A DNA stretch of 64,000 nt from Eledone cirrhosa. Lineage: Eukaryota. Of this stretch, positions 17 through 63,506 are shown in pieces (the stretch's first letter is position 1; every line of letters starts with the position of its first letter). A program made the translations under genes and the position numbers. A model generated the notes under the pieces. That model was given only the letters and a program-made list of their open reading frames with translations, was not told where the DNA came from and ran no database searches. The stretch is from positions 89,900,001-89,964,000 of the forward strand of contig OZ024745.1 in assembly GCA_964016885.1 (NCBI GenBank), in the 5' to 3' direction.

Positions 17-1448
17 ATGGCCAAGAAAACCCACACAGATAGATGGAACGGGTGGACCAGAGCCATACGGACACCCGAAAACCACGATGAACTAAAGAAA
101 ATGATTGCACATGCGGTGGGGGCCAGCATAAAATTAACCCTTAAGGAACATATGTTCAAATTTAATGGAAAAACATATGCCCAAGAGGAAGGAGCAGCCA
201 TTGGTGTTAGCATTTCAGGCGCGATAGCCCACTTATTCATGGTATGGTGGGACAGTAGACTTAAACTTAAACCTAAAGAACAATTAGAAGACCACTTAAC
301 CCTGATAATGTACTCCCGCTACGTTGATGATATAAACATCATAGTTAAAACGCCCCCACTAGAGAACAGTCAGGAATTAGAGAAAAACACAATGGAAAGC
401 ATCCAGCAAATAGCTAACTCCATCCACCAGAGTATTAGAGTTACTATAGACTACCCAAGTAAACACCCCAACCATCGATTACCTGTACTAGACACGGAGC
501 TCTGGTTAGATACCATTAATAACAAAAAACAAATCCTCCATTCCCATTATGCCAAACCCATGACTTCCAAATATCTGATCCACCGAAACTCAGCTGTTTC
601 GGACCATACCAAAATCAACATACTGATTGCGGATTCGGTACGGGTGATGAGAAACGTGTCCCGCATGTGCAACCCCGAAGAACTAGAGAGACACATACAA
701 CACTTCATCCACCGTATGCAGTTCTCTGGTTACAATCAGAGAGATAAAATCAGAGTGTATAGAGGAGCCAGAACCAAATGGGAAAAAATGGTAAATAATG
801 ACACAAATGGGACCTGCCCCTTGTATAGGAGCAAATTTTGGAATAGAATAGAAAGAACTAGGAATAAGGCTAATAGAATAAACTCATGGTATGATAGCAA
901 TAAATGCCAGAGTGTAATGTTCATCGATACAACCCCTAGAGGTGAATTAGCTTACAAATTTAGAAGGGCCCTAGATAAACATAAACTCAATATTAAGATA
1001 GTTGAAGGACCAGGTGCCTCCGTACAAACACTTATTAGCAAGATATACCCTTTTCAAAGACCCCTGTATAGATAAGAAATATATAACCTGTAAATTAAGT
1101 CTCCATATTAACTGTAAAACTAGAAATGTAGTATATAGCATAAGATGTACTGAAGGACAATGTAGAGACAAAAATATAGTGTACATAGGTGAGACAGCTC
1201 GTAGATTAGGGGAACAGATAAAGGAACACTGGCGAGACCTTGAAGATAGTAAAGAATCATCTGTACTCTACTAACATGCTAAAATAGAACATAAGGGTAA
1301 ATTAGAGAACATAGAAATAAAAATAGAATCTACACACAGAAAATACGCAATGTTTAGACAAATAACAGAGGCAATAAACATAAAAGAATTACAACCAACA
1401 TTAAATAGAAAACATGAGTGGAACAGCAACATCACAACTTACAATTAA
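17..1448 (+). pseudogene. PLE RT/GIY-YIG ORF with frameshift (~1065) and in-frame stop (1272)
   Basis: ORFs 17-1075 and 1002-1274; the copy at 46319-47209 shows the uninterrupted C-terminal frame. Confidence 0.85.
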
Positions 1449-2061: not shown

Positions 2062-3142
2062 GGAGGTGAGTTTTATTGTAGTACAATAAAGCAATGCAGA
2101 TATCGGATAAGAAGCACTCTACAGTTTGTAGGACTGGAGTATGCATAATATAAGATCAAAAGATGGTTAAAGGAGTTCCATGTATTTTATTATGCGCATT
2201 TCAAAAACAAACATCATCATGCAATAATACTTGTGTTTTCATCAGATAAAACAGGAGAACATGATATGAAGGCTAAAAAACACTTGTGGATAGTGCAGTT
2301 TTAAATCTACATATGAAAAGTGGTTTTAGATTGATGTGTGATATTGGGAAAAATATTTTATTTAGAGATGGGGGGGGAGGATGAAAAAGGGGGAGGAGAT
2401 GAGAGGAAGAGATGGGTAATAGAGAGAAAGAGATAGCTTTTATAACTGAGAGGAGATATACTGTCCCACACAGAGAGGTTGAAAACCGTTGGAAGATAAT
2501 GTATAAACCCCAAAAAATTTTTGAAAATCAACGAAAGGAGGATATGTGCGAGGAAAAAGTATTTTATTTAAGGAGGGGGGCTGTGTAATGCAATGTATCT
2601 TTCTCTCAGTTATAAAAACTATCTCTTTCTCTCTATCGCCCATCTCTCCCTCTCCACCTTCACTCTCATCTCCTCCCCCTTTTTTTCATCCTTTCCAGCC
2701 CCTCTCCTTAAATAAAATACTTTTTCCTCGCACATATCCTCCTTTCGTTGATTTTCAAAAATTTTTTGGGGTTTATACATTATCTTCCAACGGTTTTCAA
2801 CCTCTCTGTGTGGGACAGTATATCTCCTCTCAGTTATAAAAGCTATCTCTTTCTCTCTATCACCCATCTCTCCCTCTCTACTCCTCCCCCTTTTTCATCC
2901 TTTCCACCCCCCCCCCCTCTCTAAATAAAATATTTTTCCCAATATCACACATCAATCTAAAACCACTTTTCATATGTAGATTTAAAACTGCACTATCCAC
3001 AAGTGTTTTTTAGCCTTCATATCATGTTCTCCTGTTTTATCTGATGAAAACACAAATATTATTGCATGATGATGTTTGTTTTTGAAATGCGCATAATAAA
3101 ATACATGGAACTCCTTTAACCATCTTTTGATCTTATATTATA
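2058..3142. mobile_element. non-coding HHR element, family A, head-to-head palindromic insertion between (TA)n tracts
   Basis: 2147-2580 is the reverse complement of ~2700-3140; HHR on - at 2184-2252 and on + at 3034-3102; internal ~200 bp duplication. Confidence 0.8.
3034..3102 (+). ncRNA. type-I hammerhead ribozyme, family A
   Basis: GTTTTAT-CTGATGA-long stem II (CAAATATTATT/GATGATGTTTG)-GAAA-TGCGCA-TA-ATAAAAT; palindromic stem III ATGCGCAT; copies at 2184-2252(-), 37174-37242, 63396-63464. Confidence 0.8.
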
Positions 3143-11794: not shown

Positions 11795-14376
11795 TGATAT
11801 ATATATATACAATGATATTAAATAAATGTAAACTATATTTATAAAACCATATTTATTTTATTATATATATTTCAAGGGAAACAAAGACAACATTGGTACG
11901 CTTTCATCAGATAAAATACAAAGTTTGTTTTATAAATAGAGACATACCCATGAAAACCATACCTTATCGGTTGGAAATTCACTGGATAGTGCAAATATAT
12001 TAGGGATTATTCAAACGTATGTGTCAAGATGCAAATGAATAAGTAAATAATTGAAAAACAACCGTTTATTTAAATGACACCGGAGAAAGAGAGAGAGAAG
12101 AAAAAAATATAAGTGGATAAAGATAGAAAATATTACGAGAGAGATAGAGAGAAGAAATAGACAAGAGAAGATGAATATAATTATTAAGATTAAAATTACA
12201 ATTAAAATTAAAATTTTAATTTTAAAAAAATTAGAATTATATATGTATATATTTTATGAAACTTTAAGAAGTGAAATTATAGCAAATGTTATAGATATGA
12301 TTTAGAGAAATCAATATATTAAAACCAAGTGGATAAGATTGTTATGGAAATAATTATAAATATTATAAGTGTAATTATAATTTATATATAGTTCTATATG
12401 TTGAATTCAGGCGATGGCTACAAGAATTAAATAAATTCGTCTTAGATTAATAGAGTTCTTACATATAAGTATGAAAAAAATTTCCTTAACACACAATTTG
12501 CAGAATCTAGATAAAGCTGTGTTTCTGAAATTATTTCCCAAGTTAATGAAAAGTCCATATTTTTGCATTTTAAGTTCCATACCAGGTTTGAAAGAGAAGT
12601 TGAAGATTTTTTTATAAAATCTTTTGAAAGAGCATTTGTGATTATTCCAGCGACTTTTAAATTCTATAGAAGTTGCACCTCCATAGTTAAATATATTATC
12701 ACAGGTACATTATCACTGTACATTTATAGGCCACGTCCTTATGTAAACACTTATTTTGTAAAGGACAATTTAATTTAATTCTACAGTTACATTTTGTGGA
12801 ATTGTTGTTATTCGGAACGGGACTATTATATTGTATATTGCTAGAGATATTACTGGTATTTTGGTTATTTTTGGTTAGGGTTTAAATTTCTATTATTGAT
12901 TCTATTTATATTTTGTGCTATGTTCATAGTAGTAAAGTAGGATAGTTTTATAGTATGTCTGTTAAAGATTGAGTGGTATCTGTGGGCTTCAGGAAAACAT
13001 TTATCTAGTGGTTTAAAGAATAGCTTTCCTAAAGGTGTTTTAACGCTTTATGAGAATGGGGGTGTGTACCAAATAATATTTCTAATTGTATTTTTTCTGT
13101 TAGTTTTAGAGTTTAAGTTAGATTTTGTATTATAATTATAATTAATAGTAGGGTTATTTGCCTTATTACTGTTGTCGATGTATTTAATCTTATTTATATA
13201 GCCTGCTCTATTTAAAGCTTCATTATAATATTCTGCCTTATCGTCAAAAATGTTTTTATTAGCGGAGATGCGTGAAATACGTTGTTGGATAGAATTAACA
13301 ATAGTGTTCTTGATAGATCTAGGATGATTAGAGTTAAAACTTACATAGTTTAGATTCTCATTAATTTTATGGAATGGATAGTATAGCCCAGTGTTAAGGT
13401 TTAATGTTACGTCTAAAAAGTTAACAATTTTATAGTTATTCTCTATTTTTAACTTAAGATTATAGCTATTGAAGAATTGGATTATGGATTTTCTTTTTCT
13501 ATTAATTTCACAATTACTATGATTTTCAATTAAAAACAGCATATCATCACAATATAAATGACCGGCCATCTCTGGTATTTTTCTATGCAGTATATTATTA
13601 ATAAATAGTCCCACAAGATCCGTTATTTGCGCCGAGTCTGATGATCCCATGGTGATATCAACATTATTTTTTCTATCGGCTCCAGTCCAGAGATGATTGT
13701 TGAATTCAATTAAAGTTTTCGCTGCGGTTAAAATGATATGCATTTCTTCGCTAGATAAATCTGTATGTTTAGATGCATAGATAAGAGCTTTATTAAGTAA
13801 ATTAGGAGTAATGGAGGAGTAGTAGTTTGCAATATCCAATTGAATGAACTTTTTGTTATGCTTAAATGTTATGTTATTGAACCAATCTATAACTTCGTTA
13901 ATACCGTTCCATAGTTTTAGGTAAGATATTTCTTTAAGCCGATAGAATATTTTTTTTTATATCACCATGGGATCATCAGACTCGGCGCAAATAACGGATC
14001 TTGTTGGGCTATTTATTAATAATACACTACATGGAAAAATACCAGAGATGACTGGTGGTTTATATCGTGATGATATGCTGCTTTTAATTGAAAATCATAG
14101 TAATTGTGAAATTAATAGAAAAAGAAAATCCATAATACAATTATTCAATAGCTACAACCTTAAGTTAGAAATAGAGAATAACTATAAAATTCTTAACTTT
14201 TTAGTCGTAACATTAAACCTTAATACTGGGCTATACTATGCATTCGATAAATTAATGATAATCTAAACTATGAAGTTTTAACCCTAATCATCCTAGATCT
14301 ATCAAGAACACAATTGTTAATTCTATCCAACAACGTGTTTCACGCATCTCCGCTAATAAAAACATTTTTGACGATA
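11795..14376 (-). mobile_element. PLE family PLE3 (AT-rich member of the 'GLYRDD' group) with HHR pLTR and inverted 5' segment
   Basis: ORF 13048-13839 (DIANYYSSI, MGSSDSAQ, NFLDVTL, SNHP, WYTPP); GIY-YIG remnant ~12410-12800 (KCNCR..CPL..C); 13960-14376 is an inverted duplicate of ~13237-13660. Confidence 0.85.
11854..11918 (-). ncRNA. type-I hammerhead ribozyme, family B
   Basis: TATTTTAT-CTGATGA-AAG..CTT-GAAA-TATATA-TA-ATAAAATA; related copy at 39290-39356(+). Confidence 0.7.
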
Positions 14377-15590: not shown

Positions 15591-17730
15591 ATGCGAAAAC
15601 ACAACATCGACTTCTCCACCAAGAACATCCCAGTTCCACCTAAAAAACTTTACCTTCGGATGCTCACGCAAAAAATCGACCTATTTACGAAAAGACTTAG
15701 ATGGAGAACTTTTTTCTACGACAGATATTGCGACAATGAGGACTTCGGTACCAAGGAGAGATTCGGATTTAATACCTACAAATATCCCCCTCCGAACCCT
15801 ATTCTCTCACCCTTCGAGAATGACCTTTTCCAACTAGTCAAGAAGATTAAATTCAAACCCAGACACAACCGATTCCTACAAAAACTCCGTAGCAACTTAA
15901 CAGAGTATGATAACACCATGACATCATGGTGCACTCGGATAAAACTGGTAACCTCTACTTCGTCAACCCCGACAGATACCACACACTGATCAGGAGCAGC
16001 CTAAACTCCACCTATAAAAAGGCTAACCACTCCTGCATCAAGGACATCAATCGAGATGGACAACAAATTACCTCCAGCCTCGGGGTCGCCGACCGCACGG
16101 AACCCCTAGAGCCACGGACACCCCACTTCACACTGAAGGACCACAAATCCGATTTCGACCGTAAACCTTCTATCAGGCTTATAAACCCAACGAAGTCCGA
16201 CATAGGGAGAATCAGCAAAAAAATCCTAGACCGCGTTATACCAAAAATTAAGCAACACGCCAGACTTAGCCTATGGGTCAACACCCAGGAAGTAATCTCA
16301 TGGTTCAGCAATATGGAGGACAAACGAGACACAAAATTCATCCAGTTTGACATAGAGAGTTACTATGCTTCAATTACCTTACCGCTACTTACGGCTGCCT
16401 TGGACTTTGCCGAAACACTTGCGCCCATCACCGACCAGGAAAGAAACATCATCCTCCACGCCAGGAAGACAGTCCTACTCTTCGACAACTACAAATGGAT
16501 AAAGAGAGATCCCGACTCACCCTTGGACGTCAGCATGGGCGCGACGGATTCGGCTGAGGTCACAGATCTTATAGGATTATTCATACTAGTTAAACTCACC
16601 GATATGTTTCCTGCATTCGGCGGTGGATTGTACCGTGATGATGGGCTCCTTATCCTTAAAGGGTACAATCCCAGTAGTACAGACCGGGTCCATAAACAAT
16701 TAATCAGCTTCTTCCGCGACTGGGGATTTAAAATAACACTACAAACGTCCCTGACCCGAGTAAACTTCCTGGACGTTACCCTTGACCTCGATAATGATCT
16801 GTACTACCCTTACAGGAAACCCAACGGCAACCTGCACTACATCCACCGCCGGTCAAACCATCCTAGGAACATCACCAATAACCTGGTTAAAAACATCTCC
16901 CTCCGCATATCTCGTTTGTCCGCTAATGAGCAGATATTCGAGGAACATGCACCTTATTACAACCAGGCCCTCAAGCGGAGTGGTTTCCGGGAGGAAATAT
17001 CCTACTGTCCAGCTTCCATTAGCGGAACCAGCAGGCGACACCGCCGCTCACGCAATGTAACATGGTTCAATCCTCCCCACAACGCCGAGGTGACAACTCA
17101 TATCGGGAAAATCTGCTTTAGGCTCATCGAAAAACACTTCCCACTACAACACCGCTACCACAACATAATTAACAAAAATACCATCAAACTCTCCTACAGC
17201 ACCACACCAAACTTTGCACAAAACATCGTCTCCTCTAACAACAAAAAATTCAACCCCTATGGAAGAAATAACCTAAATAGCAGTGGAGAGCCGACCAGGA
17301 GGTGCAACTGTCCTGATGGATCCATTTGCCCCCTCGACAACAGATGCAGAGATCGTAATGTGATCTACCAGTGCAACGTGAGGACGGACACCTCCAACAA
17401 AGCTTATATAGGATTAACTGCGTGTGACTTCAAGACCCGGCTATACCAACACAGACATACCTTCCGAAACCCGGCCCGGCATCACGCCACCACACTTTCG
17501 GGCCACATCTGGGACCTCAAGGATAACAATATTACCTATGATCTCACTTGGAGTTTACTGTCCAGAGCCAACTCTTACACGGGAGGACGCCGTCCGTGCA
17601 ATTTATGCTCGGAGGAAACTTTACAAATGCTGTTTTAGATGGACCAACTCCTAAACAAGAAAGACGAACTGGTAACTGCATGCAAACACAGATTGCGTAG
17701 GACTTACCTCGCCCTCAAACCCCATAATGA
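15591..17730 (+). pseudogene. PLE RT + GIY-YIG protein; one frameshift (~15920) and a late premature stop (17636)
   Basis: DFSTKNIP, RLINPTKSDIG, FIQFDIESYY, GLYRDDG, NFLDVTL, SNHP, WFNPP, CNC..CPL..C, VIYQC..YIGLT..FK.R, CNLC. Confidence 0.9.
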
Positions 17731-19066: not shown

Positions 19067-19915
19067 ACAAAGTAATACACAGACACATGCGAATATATAC
19101 ATCTACATGCATATACCCACATATATCTCTGAATTTGTGTGGTGGCAACCTTAATCGTTGTTGCTCTATGAAAAATAGGGACAAAATAATCTGAATGGTT
19201 TAGATTGATTCAATATCAGAGCTATATAATACATTATAAAGAAAGAAGAAACATTAGATATAAATAAAAAGATATAATATACCTAAATTCCCTCATTATC
19301 CTCGACTACGTAGTTTCGTGGCTATTATGCAAAAACATTACATCATAGAGATGCAGTATTTTTGTGAGGTTTGCCGACTTATCAAGAGGATAGCTCAGTT
19401 AGAGTTATAAAACACGTCCGTAGGACGCGAGATAGAATCCCGAAAGGTGGAGGGGGAACTTATCACGTGATACAGCGGTCAAGAAACAGAGCTAAGCCTC
19501 TTACAACCAAGAGAAAAATACCACCAAAGGCTGAGGGGGTGTTTATGTCAACGTCGTAGAAGAGTTGGCTAGGATGGCGAGAAGTGTGATTAGTGAAAGC
19601 TTAACAGCAGTCACTATACTTCAGTTGTTACTCTACCGTAGGGAGTTATAAACAATACAAAGAAATACACAGACACATGCGAATACATACATATACATGC
19701 ATATACCCACATATATCCCTGAATTTGTGTGGTGCCAACCTTAACCGTTGTTACTCTATGAATAATAGGGACAAAATAATCTGAATGGATTAGATTGATT
19801 CAATATCAAAGCTATATAATACATTATAAAGAAAGAAGAGACCGAGGATAATGAAGGAATTTAGGTATATTATATATTTTTATTTATATCTAATGTTTCT
19901 TCTTTCTTTATAATG

Positions 19916-20000: not shown

Positions 20001-20114
20001 AGTATATATATATATATATCCAAAATTAAATTAAGCGTTGTTATGTCTGAAAGACATGCGCCATATCCACTGCAGAATAAGCACAAAGATTCCAATGAAT
20101 AGATCCGAACATTT

Positions 20115-20762
20115 TATATCAACTAGAAATAGATTGACATATATATATATATATAAAATAAACATATGAAACAATCACAGCGAATAATTTGTAAAGTGTG
20201 TAAGCACACATAGCTAGGTAGGTAACTAATTAAAGTTTAACTAGAACTTCAAATATAGATACCTTTTAAAATGATTAATCTCCTTTTTATATATTTCTTT
20301 AAATAAAAAATATATTTCACCAATTAATCGGTAAATCACAGTAGTCAAATTCGGATGGTCACCAAAGGAGAAGATCCAACCATCTGTGTTTACATAGCAA
20401 ATGCAAATCTGTCAATAGAAATAGATTGATGTATATATATATATAAAATAAACATATGAAACAATCACAGGCAATAATTTGTAAAGTGTGTAAGATGGTT
20501 GGATCTTCTCCTTTGGTGACCATCCGGGATTTGAGTACTGTATTTTACCGATTAATTGGTGAAATATATTTTTTATTTGAAGAAATATATACAAAGGAGA
20601 TTAATCATTTAAAAAGGTATCTATATTTGAAATTCTAGTTAAACTTTAATTAGTTACCTACCTAGCTATGTGTGCTTACACACTTTACAAATTATTCCCT
20701 GTGATTGTTTGATATGTTTATTTTATATATATATATATGTCAATCTATTTCTAGTTGATATA
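20115..20762. mobile_element. ~290 bp-unit HHR element, palindromic
   Basis: 20124 is repeated at ~20415; 20493-20760 is the reverse complement of 20117-20385. Confidence 0.8.
20507..20600 (+). ncRNA. hammerhead ribozyme with G3:C8-swapped core (GTGACCA)
   Basis: TCTCCTTTG-GTGACCA-stem II-GAAA-TATATT..AATATA-TA-CAAAGGAGA; mirror copy at 20279-20371(-). Confidence 0.6.
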
Positions 20763-21414: not shown

Positions 21415-22170
21415 AAGATCGGAATTAAGTATTAGTATTCCGCAATTCACAGTAATAATAATAATACTACCTCGAAGAACAGAGAATTTTCATCTGAGCT
21501 CAAATACAAATATATTACACAGAGAGAAGTGTGTTACACAGTGAGATGTGTGTAAAACATTATTACATGTGAGTTTAACCGTTACTGTATGGAGAACAAT
21601 ACCTACAGGTTAGCAATTAAATAGAAAAAAACCTAAGTCAGAATCAAATCTCTGAAGTAGAGTTTTAAATTACTAACCTTATAACTACAAGCTTGCTGAT
21701 ACGAATTTAGTTCGTTTCACCACAGAAATGTGCGGTATAACAGCCCATAGGATCTTCAGTCAGCAAGTATGGGTACTGTTTACCACACATCTAGCTTAAT
21801 GGATAGAGAGAAAGCTAATAACACGTTGCCCAGAGTAGGTCGAAATCACGTGTTATGTGCATCAAATAACGGCTCTCATGAATTGGGGGAAATGCTAGAG
21901 AGTGCAGCCCAACCATTCGAATTTATTAGCTCTACAATCTGGAGCTCGTTAAATATACAAAGATCGGAATTAAAGTATTCCGCAGTTCACAGTAATAATA
22001 GTAATTTACAACTCTTCTTCAAAGATTTGATTCTGACTTAGGTTTTTTTCTATTTAATTGCTAACCTGTAAGTATTGTTCTCCATACAGTACCGGTTAAA
22101 CTCACATGTAATAATTTTTTACACACATCTCACTGTGTAACACAATTCTCTCTGTGTAATATATTTGTAT
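21412..22170 (-). mobile_element. ~545 bp-unit HHR element with inverted arm
   Basis: acaaagatcggaatta at 21412 and 21957; 22010-22170 inverts ~21500-21665. Confidence 0.75.
21692..21767 (-). ncRNA. type-I hammerhead ribozyme
   Basis: CTTGCTGA-CTGAAGA-stem II-GAAA-CGAA ctaaa TTCG-TA-TCAGCAAG (8-bp stem I, canonical core, GUA site). Confidence 0.85.
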
Positions 22171-28638: not shown

Positions 28639-30879
28639 TTATAAACACACAGATACATGCGGACACACACATATATACATGAATGCATCCGCACCCAACT
28701 GTGAGTTAAGGGTGCCAACTTCACCGATGTTGCTCAATGAATGACTGGGACAGACCAATTCAGTTTGAACCAGACTGAACCAGTATCAGAGTTAAAAATA
28801 CATTATGAAGAGAGAAGAAACATTTAGATATAATTAGTAATAAAATGTATCATACCTAAACTGCTCCTAAATTCCTCAACTACGTAGTTTCGTGGCATAA
28901 ACAAAACGTCGTGTAGACGCGTTCTTGAGACTAGTAAAATGAGGTATCCTCTTGATAAGTCGGCAGACCTCGCAAGGACTCTATATCTTTCATATATTGT
29001 TTTTGTTTATGCCACGAAACTACGTAGTCGAGGAATTTAGGAGCAGTTTAGGTATGATACATTTTATTACTAATTATATCTAAATGTTTCTTCTCTCTTC
29101 ATAATGTATTTTTAACTCTGATACTGGTTCAGTCTGGTTCAAACTGAATTGGTCTGTCCCAGTCATTCATTGAGCAACATCGGTGAAGTTGGCACCCTTA
29201 ACTCACAGTTGGGTGCGGATGCATTCATGTATATATGTGTGTGTCCGCATGTATCTGTGTGTTTATAAATATATTAATAACTCCCTCTGGTCGAGCAATC
29301 TTTGAAGTGTGGGGACAACTGGAAAGCTTCCATTACTCATACTTCTCGCCTTCTTCACTACCTCTTCTGCGGCCTCGATATGAATACCCCCTCCGCCTCC
29401 GTGGTATTTTCTTCGTGGTTATAAGAGGCTTAGCTCTGTTTCTCGACCGTTATATCGCGTGACTATCTCCCCCTCCGCCTTTTGGGATTCTTTCTCACGT
29501 CGTGTAGACGCGTTCTTGAGACTAGTAAAATGAGGTATCCTCTTGATAAGTCGGCAGACCTCGCAAGGACTCTATATCTTTCATATATTGTTTTTGTTTA
29601 TGCCACGAAACTACGTAGTCGAGGAATTTAGGAGCAGTTTAGGTATGATACATTTTATTACTAATTATATCTAAATGTTTCTTCTCTCTTCATAATGTAT
29701 TTTTAACTCTGATACTGGTTCAGTCTGGTTCAAACTGAATTGGTCTGTCCCAGTCATTCATTGAGCAACATCGGTGAAGTTGGCACCCTTAACTCACAGT
29801 TGGGTGCGGATGCATTCATGTATATATGTGTGTGTCCGCATGTATCTGTGTGTTTATAAATATATTAATAACTCCCTCTGGTCGAGCAATCTTTGAAGTG
29901 TGGGGACAACTGGAAAGCTTCCATTACTCATACTTCTCGCCTTCTTCACTACCTCTTCTGCGGCCTCGATATGAATACCACCTCCGCCTCCGTGGTATTT
30001 TCTTCGTGGTTATAAGAGGCTTAGCTCTGTTTCTCGACCGTTATATCGCGTGACTATCTACCCCTCCGCCTTTTGGGATTCTTTCTCACGTCGTGTAGAC
30101 GCGTTCTTGAGACTAGTAAAATGAGGTATCCTCTTGATAAGTCGGCAGACCTCGCAAGGACTCTATATCTTTCATATATTGTTTTTGTTTATGCCACGAA
30201 ACTACGTAGTCGAGGAATTTAGGAGCAGTTTAGGTATGATACATTTTATTACTAATTATATCTAAATGTTTCTTCTCTCTTCATAATGTATTTTTAACTC
30301 TGATACTGGTTCAGTCTGGTTCAAACTGAATTGGTCTGTCCCAGTCATTCATTGAGCAACATCGGTGAAGTTGGCACCCTTAACTCACAGTTGGGTGCGG
30401 ATGCATTCATGTATATATGTGTGTGTCCGCATGTATCTGTGTGTTTATAAATATATTAATAACTCCCTCTGGTCGAGCAATCTTTGAAGTGTGGGGACAA
30501 CTGGAAAGCTTCCATTACTCATACTTCTCGCCTTCTTCACTACCTCTTCTGCGGCCTCGATATGAATACCCCCTCCGCCTCCGTGGTATTTTCTTCGTGG
30601 TTATAAGAGGCTTAGCTCTGTTTCTCGACCGTTATATCGCGTGACTATCTCCCCCTCCGCCTTTTGGGATTCTTTCTCACGTCGTGTAGACGCGTTCTTG
30701 AGACTAGTAAAATGAGGTATCCTCTTGATAAGTCGGCAGACCTCACAAGGACTCTATATCTTTGATATATTGTTTTTGTTTATGCCACGAAACTACGTAG
30801 TCGAGGAATTTAGGACCAGTTTAGGTATGATACATTTTATTACTAATTATATCTAAATGTTTCTTCTCTCTTCATAATG

Positions 30880-37000: not shown

Positions 37001-37386
<386 letters not shown>

Positions 37387-38756: not shown

Positions 38757-39400
38757 ACACTTACTCTGATTGGTTGAAAATTAGCCAATGACATACGATC
38801 ACCACCACCACGGCTATCCCCGGAAAATTTATGAAGAAGTTAGGCATATATGTTAGAACACGAAAAGTGAACATTCTGTTGTTTCACACTTTTCGTGTTC
38901 TAACAGATATTATTCTTCCACCTTAATCTTATTTCTTCTTTCACTTAGATATACTTACGCTGTGTATATTTCTCCTTTAAAACTTATTTCTTCTTTAACT
39001 CCATCTTGACTATCAATATGTATAATCGTTCTTTCTAACCTCTTCTATCTTTCTCCTTTCTTTTTTCTTTTTTTCTTTTTTGTTCTCTCTCCCTTACTTT
39101 TCATCTTCTTCCAACAGTTTAATTTAAATAAACCGTTATCTTTTCAACCTTTCGGACACCCGTTTGCATACTCACTCATAACTTTGTATTACCCTCAATA
39201 AATGTACTATCTTCACTATCCAGGAAGCTCCAACCGTTAAGGTTGTCTTTTTTCCGGGTATGTCAATATTTATTTATAAAACAAATCTGTATTTTATCTG
39301 ATGAAAGCGCACCATATTTTGCCTTGGTTGCCCTTGAAATATGTATAATAAAATAAATATGGTTTTATAAATATTATTTCCATTTATTAATATATTGTAT
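38755..39400 (+). mobile_element. family B pLTR with inversion junction
   Basis: hairpin tgttagaacacgaaaagtg/cacttttcgtgttctaaca (38851-38905); homology to 11810-12070; HHR at 39290-39356. Confidence 0.65.
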
Positions 39401-46044: not shown

Positions 46045-47600
46045 TGTTTGGAAGTCATGGGTTTGGCATAATGGGAATGGAGGATTTGTTTTTGGTTATT
46101 AATGGTATCTAACCAGAGCTCTGTGTCTAGTACAGGTAATCGATGGTTGGGGTGTTTACTTGGGTAGTCTATAGTAACTCTAATACTCTGGTGGATGGAG
46201 TTAGCTATTTGCTGGATGCTTTCCATTGTGTTTTTCTCTAGTTCCTGACTGTTCTCTAGTGGGGGTGTCTTAACTACGATGTTTATATCATCAACGTAGC
46301 GGGAGTCCCCCCCCCCCTATGACTTCCAAACATCTGATCCACCGAAACTCGGCCGTTTCGGACCATACCAAAATCAACATACTGATTGCGGATTTGGTAC
46401 GGGTGATGAGAAACGTGTCCCGCATGTGCAACCCCGAAGAACTAGAGAGACACATACAACACTTCATCCACCGTATGCAGTTCTCTGGTTACAATCAGAG
46501 AGATGAAATCAGAGTGTATAGAGGAGCCAGAACCAAATGGGAAAAAATGGTAAATAATGACATAAATGGGACCTGCCCCTTGTATAGGAGCAAATTTTGG
46601 AATAGAATAGAAAGAACTAGGAATAAGGCTAATAGAATAAACTCATGGTATGATAGCAATAAATGCCAGAGTGTAATGTTCATCGATACAACCCCTAGAG
46701 GTGAATTAGCTTACAAATTTACAAGGGCCCTAGATAAACATAAACTCAATATTAAGATAGTAGAAAGACCAGGTACCTCCGTAAAAACACTTATTCGCAA
46801 GACATACCCTTTTCAAAGACCCCCATGTATAGATAAGAAATGTATAACCTGTAAAATAAGCCCCCATATTAACTGTAAAACTAGAAATGTAGTGTATAGC
46901 ATAAGATGTACTGAAGGACAATGTAGAGACAAAAATATAGTGTACATAGGTGAGACAGTTCGTAGTGTAGGGCAACGGATAAACGAACACTGGCGAGACC
47001 CTCAAGATAGTAAAGAATCATCTGTACTCTACCAACATGCTAAAATAGAACACAAGGCTAAATTAGAGAACATAGAAATAAAAATAGAATCTACACACAG
47101 AAAAGACGCAATGTTTAGACAAATCACAGAGGCAATAAACATAAAAGAATTACAACCAAAATTAAATAGAAAATATGAGTGGAACAGCAACATCACAACT
47201 TACAATTAAGGACAAAATGAAAACACACACACACATAGAACAAACAACCAACCAGTAACATGTAAATAAACAAATAAATAAATGAACATAAACACACACA
47301 GACACCCGGATGTGGCGCATGCGCAGTCTGAGCACACAACACACACACAGAAACAAAATGGCGTAGGACAAAACAAAGGAGAGGCACAAAAACAAAGAAA
47401 AGAATCCCCAGTCACTGAAGAGGTCACAGAATGTGTGACGAAAGAACTTTGACAATATATAAACAACTATCTGGTTGTGGAACCAACCAACCAGAAATTT
47501 ATAAATTTATTCCTAAATTTATAAATTTATTATAATAAATTGAAGTAAAAGCAAATGGTGCGTGTGTTTTTTTATTGGCAACATGACCCTCCCAAAGTAT

Positions 47601-48317: not shown

Positions 48318-48361
<44 letters not shown>

Positions 48362-48366
<5 letters not shown>

Positions 48367-51085
48367 GAATATAGACATAGAATATTCGAAAATATTCTGT
48401 ATGTTTATAATAAACATTTTGAAGACCTAATCGCTATAGAATAGAATACGTCACGTATTACAATTAGATTCTCGATAAAAGCAAGGGAAGTAATCTACGC
48501 GTTTCATTCTTGTTAGAAATCATCAGGACTACATATCCAGTGCTTTTATCGAGAATGACACAGCTAGAGACTTATAGAATACTTAGCTGTGTACAGGAAC
48601 TGGTTTGAAAGAGCGGTTGCCGGTCCGGCAGAAATTAGAAATTGGAATAAATGCTCTGAAATAGCGATATATATGTGAATATAGACATAGAATATTCGAA
48701 AATATTCTGTATGTTTATAATAAACATTTTGAAGACCTAATCGCTATAGAATAGAATACGTCACGTATTACAATTAGATTCTCGATAAAAGCAAGGGAAG
48801 TAATCTACGCGTTTCATTCTTGTTAGAAATCATCAGGACTACATATCCAGTGCTTTTATCGAGAATGACACAGCTAGAGACTTATAGAATACTTAGCTGT
48901 GTACAGGAACTGGTTTGAAAGAGCGGTTGCCGGTCCGGCAGAAATTAGAAATTGGAATAAATGCTCTGAAATAGCGATATATATGTGAATATAGACATAG
49001 AATATTCGAAAATATTCTGTATGTTTATAATAAACATTTTGAAGACCTAATCGCTATAGAATAGAATACGTCACGTATTACAATTAGATTCTCGATAAAA
49101 GCAAGGGAAGTAATCTACGCGTTTCATTCTTGTTAGAAATCATCAGGACTACATATCCAGTGCTTTTATCGAGAATGACACAGCTAGAGACTTATAGAAT
49201 ACTTAGCTGTGTACAGGAACTGGTTTGAAAGAGCGGTTGCCGGTCCGGCAGAAATTAGAAATTGGAATAAATGCTCTGAAATAGCGATATATATGTGAAT
49301 ATAGACATAGAATATTCGAAAATATTCTGTATGTTTATAATAAACATTTTGAAGACCTAATCGCTATAGAATAGAATACGTCACGTATTACAATTAGATT
49401 CTCGATAAAAGCAAGGGAAGTAATCTACGCGTTTCATTCTTGTTAGAAATCATCAGGACTACATATCCAGTGCTTTTATCGAGAATGACACAGCTAGAGA
49501 CTTATAGAATACTTAGCTGTGTACAGGAACTGGTTTGAAAGAGCGGTTGCCGGTCCGGCAGAAATTAGAAATTGGAATAAATGCTCTGAAATAGCGATAT
49601 ATATGTGAATATAGACATAGAATATTCGAAAATATTCTGTATGTTTATAATAAACATTTTGAAGACCTAATCGCTATAGAATAGAATACGTCACGTATTA
49701 CAATTAGATTCTCGATAAAAGCAAGGGAAGACGTATTCTATTCTATAGCGATTAGGTCTTCAAAATGTTTATTATAAACATACAGAATATTTTCGAATAT
49801 TCTATGTCTATATTCACATATATATCGCTATTTCAGAGCATTTATTCCAATTTCTAATTTCTGCCGGACCGGCAACCGCTCTTTCAAACCAGTTCCTGTA
49901 CACAGCTAAGTATTCTATAAGTCTCTAGCTGTGTCATTCTCGATAAAAGCACTGGATATGTAGTCCTGATGATTTCTAACAAGAATGAAACGCGTAGATT
50001 ACTTCCCTTGCTTTTATCGAGAATCTAATTGTAATACGTGACGTATTCTATTCTATAGCGATTAGGTCTTCAAAATGTTTATTATAAACATACAGAATAT
50101 TTTCGAATATTCTATGTCTATATTCACATATATATCGCTATTTCAGAGCATTTATTCCAATTTCTAATTTCTGCCGGACCGGCAACCGCTCTTTCAAACC
50201 AGTTCCTGTACACAGCTAAGTATTCTATAAGTCTCTAGCTGTGTCATTCTCGATAAAAGCACTGGATATGTAGTCCTGATGATTTCTAACAAGAATGAAA
50301 CGCGTAGATTACTTCCCTTGCTTTTATCGAGAATCTAATTGTAATACGTGACGTATTCTATTCTATAGCGATTAGGTCTTCAAAATGTTTATTATAAACA
50401 TACAGAATATTTTCGAATATTCTATGTCTATATTCACATATATATCGCTATTTCAGAGCATTTATTCCAATTTCTAATTTCTGCCGGACCGGCAACCGCT
50501 CTTTCAAACCAGTTCCTGTACACAGCTAAGTATTCTATAAGTCTCTAGCTGTGTCATTCTCGATAAAAGCACTGGATATGTAGTCCTGATGATTTCTAAC
50601 AAGAATGAAACGCGTAGATTACTTCCCTTGCTTTTATCGAGAATCTAATTGTAATACGTGACGTATTCTATTCTATAGCGATTAGGTCTTCAAAATGTTT
50701 ATTATAAACATACAGAATATTTTCGAATATTCTATGTCTATATTCACATATATATCGCTATTTCAGAGCATTTATTCCAATTTCTAATTTCTGCCGGACC
50801 GGCAACCGCTCTTTCAAACCAGTTCCTGTACACAGCTAAGTATTCTATAAGTCTCTAGCTGTGTCATTCTCGATAAAAGCACTGGATATGTAGTCCTGAT
50901 GATTTCTAACAAGAATGAAACGCGTAGATTACTTCCCTTGCTTTTATCGAGAATCTAATTGTAATACGTGACGTATTCTATTCTATAGCGATTAGGTCTT
51001 CAAAATGTTTATTATAAACATACAGAATATTTTCGAATATTCTATGTCTATATTCACATATATATCGCTATTTCAGCGCATTTAT

Positions 51086-51090
<5 letters not shown>
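48362..51090. repeat. 310-bp tandem array, two ~4.4-unit arms inverted at 49730/49731; 8 complete HHRs
   Basis: period 310 (48421, 48731, 49041, 49351); HHR on - at 48468, 48778, 49088, 49398 and on + at 49936, 50246, 50556, 50866; (TA)n on both flanks. Confidence 0.93.
49936..50024 (+). ncRNA. type-I hammerhead ribozyme closed by a 16-bp stem
   Basis: ATTCTCGATAAAAGCA..GTAGTC-CTGATGA-T TTCT aaca AGAA T-GAAA-CGCG-TA-GATTAC..TGCTTTTATCGAGAAT. Confidence 0.85.
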
Positions 51091-51138
<48 letters not shown>

Positions 51139-55974: not shown

Positions 55975-57690
55975 AGATTACGAAGCATTTTCCCCCTACA
56001 CATAAATATAGTAAAATTTTTAATAGAAATACTTTTACTATTTCTTACTCTACGACTCCTAATCTTGCACATAACATCACAGCTTCAAATTTAGCTAAAC
56101 TACCTAGCCGTAGGAACACGTGCAACCCTGTAGTTAGTACTAACTGTAATTGTAGGAATCGGGTTGATTGCCCCCTATCCGGGAAATGCCTCTCTAGTAA
56201 AATTGTCTACATATGTAAGGTTGTAACACCCACGTCCCGTAGGGCCTACATAGGGTTAACCGCCAATAGATTCAAGCAGCGTCTTTACATGCATACCCAT
56301 TCCTTTCGTTACCCTCTAAGAAGGAATATGACGTCACTTTCAGCTTATATCTGGAGTCTAAAAGACAACCAAACCCAATATAAGTTACATTGGGAGATCC
56401 TAGCTAGGGCTAGATCGTATAACGGAAATAAAAGACCTTGTGACCTCTGCGCCGCTGAGGCCCTGGAAATACTCTATGCCACAGACCACATCTTAAACAA
56501 AAAATCTGAGGCAATTTCGGCTTGTAAACATAAATTGCACAAAACTTTCCTGTATTACAGCCCCACGTTATACCCTAATGGATAGTACGATCTATACGTG
56601 GATATTTTACGTCTTGATGTGGGAGCTAAGTATATGTTTTGTTTATCCCATTACTTATTTGCATAGGTAAGTATATATTACCCGTATGTTTCGTGAAGGT
56701 ACGTATACCTTCTCGTACGTATATTTGATTGTTTATGTTATGGTGTATAAACTTTTTTTTTTTTTATTCTGTTACATATGGTTTGGCTATGTGTATACGG
56801 GAGTTTTGCGTCTGTGTGAGTATGCAGGTTCGTACGTATGTAGGGTGCGTGTATATGTGTACTTCATGATTTGGTTGTCTTACGTCTCCGAACATTCGTG
56901 TATTTACATGTAGGTATGTGTGTGCGCTTGTTATTTACTTATTTATTTATTTATATACGTTTATATAATTATTTATTTATTTATTTGTATACACGCATAC
57001 ACACACACACATATTTATATGTGCGTGGTTTTGTATACCTATGGTAAGTGTTTTGCGTATGCTTGTGTATGTACGTATTTGTTTGCGTGTATGTATTTAT
57101 TTATTTCTATTACTTCTGTATTGTATTTATTTACCTTGTTCTTAACTCTGTAGCGGAGATTCATTCGGTCTCCTAGTTAGAATTTTAGTCTACGACTTCT
57201 GCTATACCATTTACGTGGTTTTGTCTTTGCGTGCTATTGTTCTCCACGCTCCACATATGACGTATTATCTTCGTTTTTTTTCGTTCATTGCCAGAGAACG
57301 TCTCTATGAACCACCTAAGAGAACATTAGTCTACGACCTCTTTTATACCATAAACGTGGTTCTGTCTGCGCGTAATTGTTTTTCACCGCTCCTATTAATG
57401 ACGTATCTTATTCGTTTTTTTCCCGTTCTTTGCCAGCGAACGTTTCCATGAACCAAAGTATCGTCTTCCTGTCTTCCTCCGGTTGCAACGTTTTGTGAAA
57501 TATCCACTTCTGCGTTTACAGATTGACTTTGTTAGTTTCAGAAGATCCCGTTAAGGGCGAAAGCAACGATTCTTTGCTTAAACTTTAATCTGTTATTTTA
57601 ATAAATATTTGCTCTACGGTTCTTATATATTTGATATATATTTATCCTTATCGAGCCCTCTTTGGATTTTAGTCTTGAAATTTATTATTA

Positions 57691-58350: not shown

Positions 58351-59187
<837 letters not shown>

Positions 59188-61507: not shown

Positions 61508-62073
61508 CAAATAACGAAACGAAATTAAATTTCGTTTCGCTTCTAACTCACTTTTGTATGACTGACGCTTAAACAATTAAGTTAAAGTGTACATCTACAT
61601 ATGTATACGGAAGTATTAGTATGCATATAAATACACACATGTATACATATGTACATGTACTCAGCTTTTCACTAGACACTTTACAGTGAGTGTCAGCTAG
61701 TCTGTATGTAACCACACAGGCGGACCGGGTTTTAGAGTCATACGAGTTTTCAAGGAAACACATTTCCTCTATTCTCCAGAGGGCCAGACAGGAATATTGG
61801 ACTAGTTTCGATGTTATTACATCTCATCAGCAATATTTACCCATCTTCCGGCTTCTCTGGAGAATTGTAAAAGCACATATCGTTATATGCTTTTTCTATG
61901 AAAATTAGTAGTGGGTAGACCAATTTGCATAGAACGTGAGTCATTGTACGCACCGGTTCAGCGGAAACGATAAAAACAAATAACGAAACGAAATTAAATT
62001 TCGTTTCGTTTCCTTGAAAACTCGTATGACTCTAAAACCCGGTCCGCCTGTGTGGTTACATACAGACTAGCTG
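61500..62073 (-). mobile_element. family K relative (~470 bp unit) with canonical HHR and inverted arm
   Basis: 61793-61837(-): AATATTG-CTGATGA-GATGT aata ACATC-GAAA-CTAG-TC-CAATATT; 62010-62073 inverts 61694-61758. Confidence 0.85.
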
Positions 62074-62074
62074 C

Positions 62075-63506
62075 CTAAATGAAAAATTTACCATTATCTC
62101 TAATCTAGATTCTATAATAAATAGACGTACAGATTTGTTTTCTATCTGCCTGCATAAATTCCATAGGACTTTTCACAAAGTATACAGCTAATATTCAATT
62201 CTTTATCAATTTAGAATCTTTTCTCAAAGGCACATATACACACACCTCTTTAAATTATACCCATCTTCCTACCTTACTTCAAAGGGCATTATACACTCTA
62301 TAATACTTGTTTACTCATTACCCTCATTCTATCTTCACCTTGTAAAATCCTTCATAACATATACATTTGTTTTTTTGACGTTAGAATATTCATCCGCAAT
62401 TATTATTTTTTTCTCTCCATCATCAAACTTTTTAATCTCAATACATTAACTCTCTCTCCTTCTTTTGACGCTAGAATATTCATTCTTAATACATATTAAC
62501 TCTTTCTTCGCACATATTATCAATTCCTTCAATATACAAACCTTAACTTCACATTATTTTTCTCAAATCATCTAATACACAAACCTTAATAATATTTTAA
62601 TACATATTAACTCTTTCTTCGCACATATTATCAATTCCTTCAATATACAAACTTTAACTTCACATTATTTTTCTCAAATCCTTCAACACGCAAACCTTAA
62701 TCATTTTTTCTCTTCATTAATTTTGAAATTGCCATAATACTTATAAACATACACCTTTTTGACGTTAGAATATTCATCCGCAATTATTATTTTTTCTCTC
62801 TATCTTCAAAATTTTTAATCTCAATACATATCAACTCCCTCTCTTTCCTCGTACATATTTTTTCCCTTCGTTAATTTTCAAATTCTTTTAATTTATACAT
62901 TATCTTCCAACGGTTCTCAACCTCTCTATGTAAAACAATATATCTTTTCTCAGTTATAAAAACTATCTCTTTCTCTCTATCACCCATCTCTCCCTCTCCA
63001 CCTTCACTCTCATCTCCTCCCCTTTTTTCATCCTTTCCACCACCCCTCTCTAAATAAAATTTTTTTTTTTTTTTTTCCTCGTACATATTTTTCCCTTCGT
63101 TAATTTTAAAATTCTTTTAATTTATACATTATCTTCCAACGGTTTTCAACCTCTCTATGTAAAACAATATATCTTCTCTCAGTTATAAAAACTATCTCTT
63201 TCTCTCTATCACCCATCTCTCCCTCTCCACATTCACTCTCATCTCCTCCCCTTTTTTTAATCCTTTCCACCCCCCCCCCTCTCTAAATAAAATATTTTTC
63301 CCAATATCACACATCAATCTAAAACTACTTTTCAAATGTTGATTTAAAACTGCACTATCCACAAGTGTTTTTTAGCCTTCATATCATGTTCTCCTGTTTT
63401 ATCTGATGAAAACACAAATATTATTGCATGATGATGTTTGTTTTTGAAATGCGCATAATAAAATACATGGAACTCCTTTAACCATCTTTTGATCTTATAT
63501 ATTATA
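62075..63506 (+). mobile_element. long family A copy with internal tandem subrepeats and terminal HHR (63396-63464)
   Basis: homology to 2600-3140. Confidence 0.75.

What the first reader, a model, noticed from the sequence alone, without database searches (positions are those of the whole stretch)
20279..20600. Apparent natural G3:C8-swapped hammerhead
Seen: in both arms of a ~290-bp-unit element the core reads GTGACCA. In the + copy it sits between a 9-bp stem I (TCTCCTTTG/CAAAGGAGA) and GAAA with a long stem III. Established: C3G/G8C is the classic laboratory rescue pair. Inference: a rare natural example; with the C:G and U:A families, three of the four possible 3:8 pairs occur in this one window.
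Basis: partly seen in the sequence, partly recalled or inferred. Interest (0 to 1): 0.75.

Follow-up and report, generated by a model that had tools for sequence, protein, structure and literature searches.

The report
Repeat family with swapped hammerhead core
About 500 copies of a non-coding jumping repeat in this animal genome carry a hammerhead-ribozyme motif whose paired core letters are swapped (G3:C8), while sister branches of the same family carry C3:G8 or U3:A8, so a change I found reported only as a laboratory rescue mutant has arisen and spread in nature and likely still supports self-cutting, which is untested.

Summary
Both arms are truncated copies of a ~542-bp non-coding Penelope-type (retrozyme-like) repeat. 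With only the flanks fixed, 92 of 100 listed copies (of 142) read G3:C8 and none C3:G8. Genome-wide, one stem I/flank pattern gives G:C 386, C:G 44, U:A 9, A:U 0 and 49 mismatches. On a tree built with positions 3, 7 and 8 masked, all G:C copies form one clade (100/99) nested among C:G copies, next to a large U:A sister family. The pair changes 3 times and the free position 7 changes 13 times. Stem I and a long leader:loop II pseudoknot covary. Stem II starts with U·U, a known natural variant. An apparent A3:U8 family was a false positive. Corrections: the unit is 542 bp, not 290; both window copies are damaged; three pairs occur within one family, not only one window. Cleavage is untested and no RNA run was listed. 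Natural G3:C8 was not found in the papers I could search, but three key papers were not available.

The parts
20009..20416 (-). Left arm: 5'-truncated copy of the 542-bp repeat unit, ending at the family's fixed 3' end beside a (TA)n tract
   Evidence: blastn against the natural tandem copy L013; end-point histogram
20372..20393 (-). Intact 5' leader of the - copy, predicted to pair with loop II (pseudoknot)
   Evidence: duplex -16.1 kcal/mol; covariation in the family
20279..20371 (-). Type I hammerhead motif, - copy: core GTGACCA 20362-20356 (G3 20362, C8 20357), G12 20318, A17 20288; C1.1 replaced by A at 20287
   Evidence: sequence; alignments
20412..20494 (-). 84-nt inverted piece of unit positions 84-167 between the arms; source of the apparent 290-bp direct repeat; replaces most of the + copy's leader
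20493..20761 (+). Right arm: 5'-truncated copy of the unit, ending near the family's second common 3' end (unit about 170)
20507..20515 (+). Stem I, 5' strand
   Evidence: compensatory changes
20516..20522 (+). Core G3 U4 G5 A6 C7 C8 A9 (swapped 3:8 pair: G 20516, C 20521)
20523..20560 (+). Stem II region: U10.1·U11.1 (20523/20560), C-G 20524/20559, C-G 20525/20558; loop II holds the pseudoknot strand (about 20528-20548)
   Evidence: fold assignment is inferred
20561..20563 (+). G12 A13 A14
20564..20590 (+). Stem III (A15.1 20564 : U16.1 20590), 8 Watson-Crick pairs, up to 11 with wobbles
20591..20591 (+). A17; predicted cleavage between 20591 and 20592 (AUA triplet)
   Evidence: position by analogy with hammerhead numbering; not assayed
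20592..20600 (+). Stem I, 3' strand

Best explanation
This is a type I hammerhead motif with a natural G3:C8 core pair, fixed in one branch (about 500 copies) of a non-coding Penelope-type repeat family whose other branches carry C3:G8 or U3:A8, and it likely still cleaves the element's RNA after the AUA triplet. Shown: the motif, the copy counts, the single G:C clade, covarying stem I and leader:loop II helix, and that the motif lies on the strand with fixed 3' ends and ragged 5' ends (the retrotransposed strand). Inferred: a C:G (or U:A) master copy took two transversions that restored the pair and went on amplifying. The leader is transcribed first and would pair with loop II, which blocks a competing hairpin that buries GAAA and docks stems I and II. 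The weak stem II (U·U plus two C-G) and the 3:8 pair would then form, and cleavage of tandem transcripts would release about 542-nt monomers, probably circularised and copied by the reverse transcriptase of an autonomous Penelope-like element that I did not find. The two copies in the window are likely impaired: + has lost most of its leader, and - has a mismatch next to the cut site.
For: Core left free: 92 of 100 listed (of 142) are G3:C8, 0 C3:G8. Same stem I and flank, genome-wide: 439 of 488 matches are Watson-Crick (386 G:C, 44 C:G, 9 U:A), and G:G occurs once. Second pattern: C:G 722, G:C 526, U:A 1355, reversed controls 9, 7, 11. Tree of 122 of 171 candidate copies with 3/7/8 masked: 53 G:C and 14 mismatch copies form one clade, 100/99, and the mismatch copies in it are scattered, as decay after insertion predicts. 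Among paired copies 3:8 needs 3 changes and position 7 needs 13. The chance that 2 of about 7 changes on the stem branch hit 3 and 8 and stay complementary is about 1e-4, or about 3e-3 over 30 pairs (rough). After the swap, changes shared by 5 or more copies hit 37 of 250 other sites but 1 of 46 paired or cleavage sites, and that one keeps its pair (Fisher p 0.015). In 67 copies, 5 of 9 stem I pairs and 5 of 10 pseudoknot pairs show two-sided changes; slid controls pair 33-61% against 95%. Stems I and III change in step across more distant families, nearly always with A17. Literature: C3G/G8C partly rescues in the lab, also in a Penelope-element hammerhead (PMC11167929, PMC8495972); natural U3:A8, U10.1·U11.1 and 2-bp stem II are known (PMC3088659 section 8, PMC4209133).
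Against: There is no cleavage or expression evidence, and copy ends do not pile up at the cut site (2 of 218 segments start at it). Lab rescue by G3:C8 is only partial, and cleavage was not needed for insertion in vitro for the Anolis element (PMC11167929). Stem II lacks G10.1:C11.1, and its TCC/GG letters were fixed by my patterns, so their constancy is not independent. The hairpin alternative for stem II pairs 92%, though without compensatory changes and broken in 12 of 66 copies at its third pair. Nested minimum-energy folds usually do not give the hammerhead (pseudoknots not modelled), and whether a 15-20 bp leader helix fits with the active core is untested. Copies were partly chosen by similarity in the ribozyme region, which inflates conservation there (terminal changes per site 0.75-1.0 in stems against 1.6 elsewhere). 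The 100% pairing at 3:8 is by my choice of rows. Stem III shows no two-sided change within the lineage. The tree bootstrap had not settled.
Confidence: 0.78

Rival explanations
1. Dead ribozyme carried along: the G:C master had lost cleavage, and the branch amplified anyway because Penelope-type retrotransposition does not need it; the restored pair is luck.
For: Hammerhead mutants did not affect insertion in vitro, and no RNA ends were seen at the cut site, for the Anolis element (PMC11167929). Naiad elements spread without canonical hammerheads (PMC8557442). No genomic pile-up at the cut site. Lab rescue is only partial.
Against: Two complementary transversions on a branch with about 7 changes (about 1e-4). 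A separate U:A switch exists in the same family. After the swap no shared pair-breaking change appears in stem III, stem I 3' strand, A17 or the pseudoknot, while loops and position 7 change.
Confidence: 0.12
2. The hammerhead fold is kept for something other than fast cleavage, such as a binding site for the partner element's protein or a slow, protein-assisted switch, so the pair is selected as structure.
For: The Anolis element's hammerhead cleaved only with added protein (PMC11167929). Minimal Penelope hammerheads are weak in vitro (PMC4209133). Here stem II is weak, and a hairpin that buries GAAA competes with the pseudoknot.
Against: The 3:8 pair belongs to the catalytically active core (established knowledge). 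The cleavage triplet and all other core letters are kept in distant families.
Confidence: 0.07
3. Another register or fold: the core starts at TTGGTGA, or stem II is the hairpin ACCGATTAATTGGT behind a 24-nt insert.
For: The hairpin is in the minimum-energy fold of the + copy and pairs in 92% of cells.
Against: Homologous copies put CTGANGA and TTGAAAA in the same columns as GTGANCA. The hairpin's third pair is broken in 12 of 66 copies and shows no two-sided change. Known alignments have no insert over 1-2 nt between the core and its stems (PMC10085705). A different stem II would not remove the 3:8 swap.
Confidence: 0.03

Closest known systems
Type I hammerheads in pseudo-LTRs of Penelope-like elements (Cervera and de la Pena 2014, PMC4209133)
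   Same: Type I topology; dispersed single copies and opposite-strand pairs 100-700 bp apart; a U3:A8 family is reported in Schistosoma mansoni
   Different: Here stem III is long (monomer-type, like the fungal and protist variants, not the minimal dimer type), stem II opens with U·U rather than G10.1:C11.1, and a G3:C8 branch exists; no G3:C8 in the two of four parts I read
Non-LTR retrozymes of animals (PMC7229834; bioRxiv 10.64898/2026.07.22.740005)
   Same: Non-coding unit, one type I hammerhead per unit, head-to-tail tandems, proposed origin from Penelope pseudo-LTRs
   Different: Unit 542-544 bp against about 170-400 nt reported; mostly truncated or inverted copies rather than long arrays; circular RNA not shown; swapped core
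Pseudoknot-stabilised hammerheads and natural core variants (Perreault et al. 2011, PMC3088659)
   Same: Pairing between the stem I side and loop II; 2-bp stem II; U10.1·U11.1; natural U3:A8
   Different: Section 8 names only C3:G8 to U3:A8 as natural covariation; the predicted helix here is much longer (15-20 bp)
Laboratory C3G/G8C rescue mutant (Martick and Scott 2006, as cited in PMC11167929 and PMC8495972)
   Same: Same exchange of the 3:8 pair
   Different: Engineered and only partly active; here natural and fixed in about 500 copies

Membership tests
Type I hammerhead ribozyme | Core U4 G5 A6 N7 A9 and G12 A13 A14 | tested here: met
   86 of 100 listed copies exact with the core left free
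Type I hammerhead ribozyme | Letters C3 and G8 | tested here: not met
   G3 and C8
Type I hammerhead ribozyme | Watson-Crick pair between 3 and 8 | tested here: met
   439 of 488 matches paired, three pair types; tree
Type I hammerhead ribozyme | Stem I flanking the cut site | tested here: met
   9 bp, 5 pairs with two-sided changes; broken at 1.1 in the window's - copy
Type I hammerhead ribozyme | Stem III with A15.1:U16.1 and an NUH triplet | tested here: met
   98% paired, AUA; differs in step between families
Type I hammerhead ribozyme | Stem II closed by G10.1:C11.1 | tested here: not met
   U·U plus two C-G pairs; a known natural variant (PMC3088659 section 8)
Type I hammerhead ribozyme | [quoted passage not shown] | tested here: met
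   in sequence only: leader:loop II helix, 5 of 10 pairs two-sided, -14 to -23 kcal/mol in the 12 copies other than window +
Type I hammerhead ribozyme | Site-specific self-cleavage | not testable with these tools
   no assay; no RNA run listed
Non-LTR retrozyme | Non-coding tandem units each with a type I hammerhead | tested here: met
   three G:C tandems, 542-544 bp (L006, L013, L087)
Non-LTR retrozyme | Expressed as circular RNA monomers | not testable with these tools
   only contig sets of unknown library type
Penelope-like element (autonomous) | RT plus GIY-YIG ORF flanked by this repeat as pseudo-LTRs | tested here: not met
   no such arrangement in 113 loci or 5 extended loci; only a sample of copies was examined
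Penelope-type insertion pattern | Inverted 5'-truncated copies, fixed 3' ends, (TA)n targets | tested here: met
   pattern as described in PMC8557442
Minimal dimeric PLE hammerhead | Missing or tiny palindromic stem III | tested here: not met
   stem III of 8-11 bp

The most novel reading that the evidence does not exclude
The hammerhead's 3:8 pair switches among Watson-Crick pairs in a single retroelement lineage (C:G to U:A and to G:C, never A:U), each version active enough to drive an amplification of hundreds to over a thousand copies. This would be the first large natural G3:C8 family, a natural series for measuring how much cleavage a retrozyme needs, and a sign that CUGANGA-based surveys miss whole hammerhead families in animals and phages.
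Probability: 0.5. Interest if true: 0.75.

Novelty: new variant of a known kind. Interest (0 to 1): 0.6.

Why it matters
The 3:8 pair of the active hammerhead was proven with an engineered G3:C8 rescue; the natural covariation I found in print is U3:A8 only. Here one family holds C:G, U:A and G:C in nearly the same background, so the three can be compared directly, including why A:U is missing and whether the long pseudoknot is what lets the swap be tolerated. It also bears on the open question of whether Penelope-type elements need their hammerheads: a pair kept through two separate double changes argues that they do. Rfam at E<=1 missed this locus, and descriptors that require CUGANGA would miss these ~500 copies.

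Tried and rejected
1) A fourth pair, A3:U8. One search gave 37 hits (control 6), about 31 from one repeat. Of 20 fetched, 18 are an unrelated repeat without stems I or III, 1 is a chance match and 1 (L186) is a lone hammerhead-like copy with a weak stem I. One search gave 3 chance-like hits. A:U is rejected, and pattern counts alone can mislead. 2) First tree was confounded by non-homologous flanks; it was redone on homologous segments only. 3) Expression: no RNA holder listed; the three contig sets laid cannot show ends or strand; no evidence either way. 4) Autonomous partner: the RT ORF behind the repeat in L017/L114 is 5'-truncated and runs into a different 3' flank, so I read it as a junction with another element. 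5) Genomic trace of cleavage: none; three fold-back junctions inside stem I (L006, L027, L095) fit either a cut end or plain 9-bp microhomology. 6) Rfam: no match at the locus; weak HH9 matches only at 61778-61848 and 59023-59101. 7) Viral contigs: 16 hits to a swapped-core pattern, 1 with full stems (L200). 8) Earlier notes for this genome or sequence: none. 9) Three papers most likely to mention natural G3:C8 were not held (Przybilski and Hammann 2007; Hammann et al. 2012, id recalled; Lunse et al. 2017).

Full report
Observation. The + strand reads stem I (20507-20515), GTGACCA (20516-20522), a 38-nt stem II region, GAA (20561-20563), stem III (20564-20590), A17 (20591) and the stem I partner (20592-20600). 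The - arm has the same core at 20362-20356 but an A for C at position 1.1 (20287). My scan of the window with any Watson-Crick 3:8 pair also listed C:G motifs (for example 3033, 21767-, 37173, 61837-) and U:A motifs (28947, 19392-, 59087-). Rfam gave nothing at the locus.

The element. The window lies in a 3.0-Gb assembly; a 131-base query gave 1301 first-look candidates, of which 40 were scored. Head-to-tail G:C copies are 542-544 bp apart in three places. Across 218 segments in 127 of 150 loci, 5' ends are scattered and 3' ends pile up at unit position 277 (46) and near 170 (13), beside (TA)n tracts; the peak at 184 is an artefact of the reference's end. That is the polarity of a retrotransposed RNA with the hammerhead on the sense strand, and it matches the inverted, truncated, microsatellite-targeted layout described for Penelope-like elements (PMC8557442, passages). 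I found no RT ORF belonging to the repeat, so it is filed as non-autonomous and retrozyme-like. The window holds other Penelope-type ORFs (one weak GIY-YIG match).

Is G3:C8 the family state? With the seven core letters left free between fixed flanks there are 142 matches. Of the 100 listed, 92 have G3 and C8, 86 read GTGANCA exactly and none has C3:G8. With stem I and the flank fixed and 3, 7, 8 free, the genome holds 488 matches: G:C 386, C:G 44, U:A 9, A:U 0 and 49 mismatches (A:C 6, A:G 1, A:A 1, U:G 2, U:C 2, C:C 7, C:A 8, C:U 4, G:A 5, G:G 1, G:U 12); reversed controls gave 0. Of the 30 non-G3 loci fetched, all but one or two are the same repeat family. A pattern free of stem I gives C:G 722 (several families), G:C 526 (98 of the 100 listed are this family by eye) and U:A 1355 (a close sister family), with controls 9, 7 and 11. 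The same pattern for A:U gave 37, which on inspection of 20 were not a hammerhead family.

History. From 171 candidate copies I kept 122 that align over at least 230 bases; the 49 dropped were truncated, from distant families or non-family. Positions 3, 7 and 8 were masked. All 53 G:C copies and 14 mismatch copies form one clade (100/99; stem branch 0.019) inside a grade of C:G copies; 16 U:A copies form another (100/100), and a few more U:A copies sit in the unresolved base. Distant families are C:G, so C:G is taken as ancestral (inference). Among paired copies the 3:8 state needs 3 changes, while position 7 needs 13, five of them inside the G:C clade. The bootstrap had not settled, so support values are rough. 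The chance of two complementary hits at 3 and 8 among about 7 changes in 383 columns is about 1e-4, or 3e-3 if any of 30 pairs would have counted. Within the G:C clade, changes shared by at least five copies fall at 37 of 250 other sites and at 1 of 46 stem III, stem I 3', A17 and pseudoknot sites, the one being A to G opposite U (p 0.015). This test is biased by how copies were collected.

Structure. On 67 chosen copies (23 G:C, 16 U:A, 28 C:G) the fold with stem I, stem III, a 2-bp stem II and a leader:loop II pseudoknot pairs in 95% of cells. Eleven pairs change on both sides: five in stem I, five in the pseudoknot and the 3:8 pair, which is paired by selection of rows. Slid controls pair 33-61%; shuffles ignore relatedness. 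More distant families keep core, TCC...GGT, GAAA and A17 with different, self-consistent stems I and III (TCC and GGT were fixed by the pattern). Position 10.1:11.1 is U·U; PMC3088659 (section 8 read in full) reports natural U·U there and 2-bp stems II. The alternative, a hairpin behind a 24-nt insert, is broken in 12 of 66 copies at one pair and shows no two-sided change, and PMC10085705 (part 3 of 8) states that no known alignment has inserts over 1-2 nt at that place. The leader:loop II duplex is -14 to -23 kcal/mol in 12 copies from four families, against -3 to -11 for a competing hairpin that buries GAAA; in the window's + copy, which lost most of its leader, the values are -11.0 and -11.9. 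Nested minimum-energy folds mostly do not show the hammerhead, as pseudoknots are not modelled.

Mechanism. Shown: motif, counts, clade, covariation, polarity. Inferred: co-transcriptional leader pairing, cleavage after AUA, release and circularisation of 542-nt monomers, mobilisation by a Penelope-like RT (by analogy with PMC7229834, passages, and the 2026 preprint, part 1 of 5). Against: no end pile-up at the cut site (2 of 218); in the Anolis element the C3G/G8C mutant was only partly active, cleavage needed protein and was not required for insertion (PMC11167929, passages). No RNA data were listed.

Novelty. Full-text searches for G3C8 (0 papers), G3-C8 (1, a lab variant, PMC3884650 passages), C3G with G8C (2, both lab mutants), GUGANCA and similar (0), U3A8/A3U8 forms (1) and C3-G8 (2) found no natural G3:C8. 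PMC3088659 and PMC4209133 (parts 1-2 of 4) name natural U3:A8 only; a text search of the former's 11 supplements found nothing relevant (figures not visible). Passages of PMC6155905 and PMC6765202 added nothing. Przybilski and Hammann 2007, Hammann et al. 2012 and Lunse et al. 2017 were not held and could hold a prior report. Earlier unchecked notes of this scan describe G3:C8 motifs in phages and protist elements. My own viral scan found 1 full type I G3:C8 motif among 16 hits, in a 169,713-base contig (L200), so the swap is not unique to this genome.

Verdict. A new variant of a known kind, well supported in sequence and untested in function. Interest 0.6.

Noticed in passing
window 21692-21767 (-), in inverted arms 21504-21675 / 21999-22170: C3:G8 hammerhead of a related family with the same U·U stem II base, leader pseudoknot and a similar upstream motif; many copies genome-wide.
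   Followed up: partly
G000, loci L149-L168: Sister family with U3:A8 (TTGAAAA), about 1350 copies, same stem III and compensated stem I; larger than the G:C branch.
   Followed up: partly
L056, L061, L077: Copies with C:A, G:A and G:C cores, all with A7, on a background close to the older one; possible intermediates of the switch or simple decay.
   Followed up: partly
L186:about 950-1050 (-): Single hammerhead-like copy with an A3:U8 core in another family; stem III 8 bp, stem I only 3 bp.
   Followed up: partly
L169-L185, L188: Unrelated dispersed repeat that mimics the A:U pattern by chance, without stems.
   Followed up: yes
window 28947-30807 (+) and 19297-19392 (-): Four tandem 591-bp units each with a U3:A8 hammerhead, and a related single copy; a retrozyme-like array.
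   Followed up: no
window 2183-2253, 3033-3103, 11854-11918, 37173-37243, 39290-39355, 63395-63465: C3:G8 hammerheads with A10.1:U11.1 and short palindromic stem III (dimer type).
   Followed up: no
window 59041-59087 (-), 61793-61837 (-): Compact type I hammerheads (U:A and C:G); the only ones with a weak Rfam HH9 match.
   Followed up: no
window 15914-17638 (+), 13048-13956 (-), 46274-47209 (+), 55977-56585 (-): Penelope-type RT and GIY-YIG-like open frames by motif; Pfam gave one weak GIY-YIG match among the two window frames scanned.
   Followed up: partly
window 48357-51091: Perfectly inverted pair of 4.4 x 310-bp tandem arrays, 99% identical; no hammerhead found by my scan.
   Followed up: no
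L006, L027, L095: Fold-back junctions that fall exactly in stem I; fit a cut RNA end or 9-bp microhomology.
   Followed up: partly
L200:70-175 (-), 169,713-base viral contig: Complete type I hammerhead with G3:C8, standard stem II, 10-bp stem III.
   Followed up: partly
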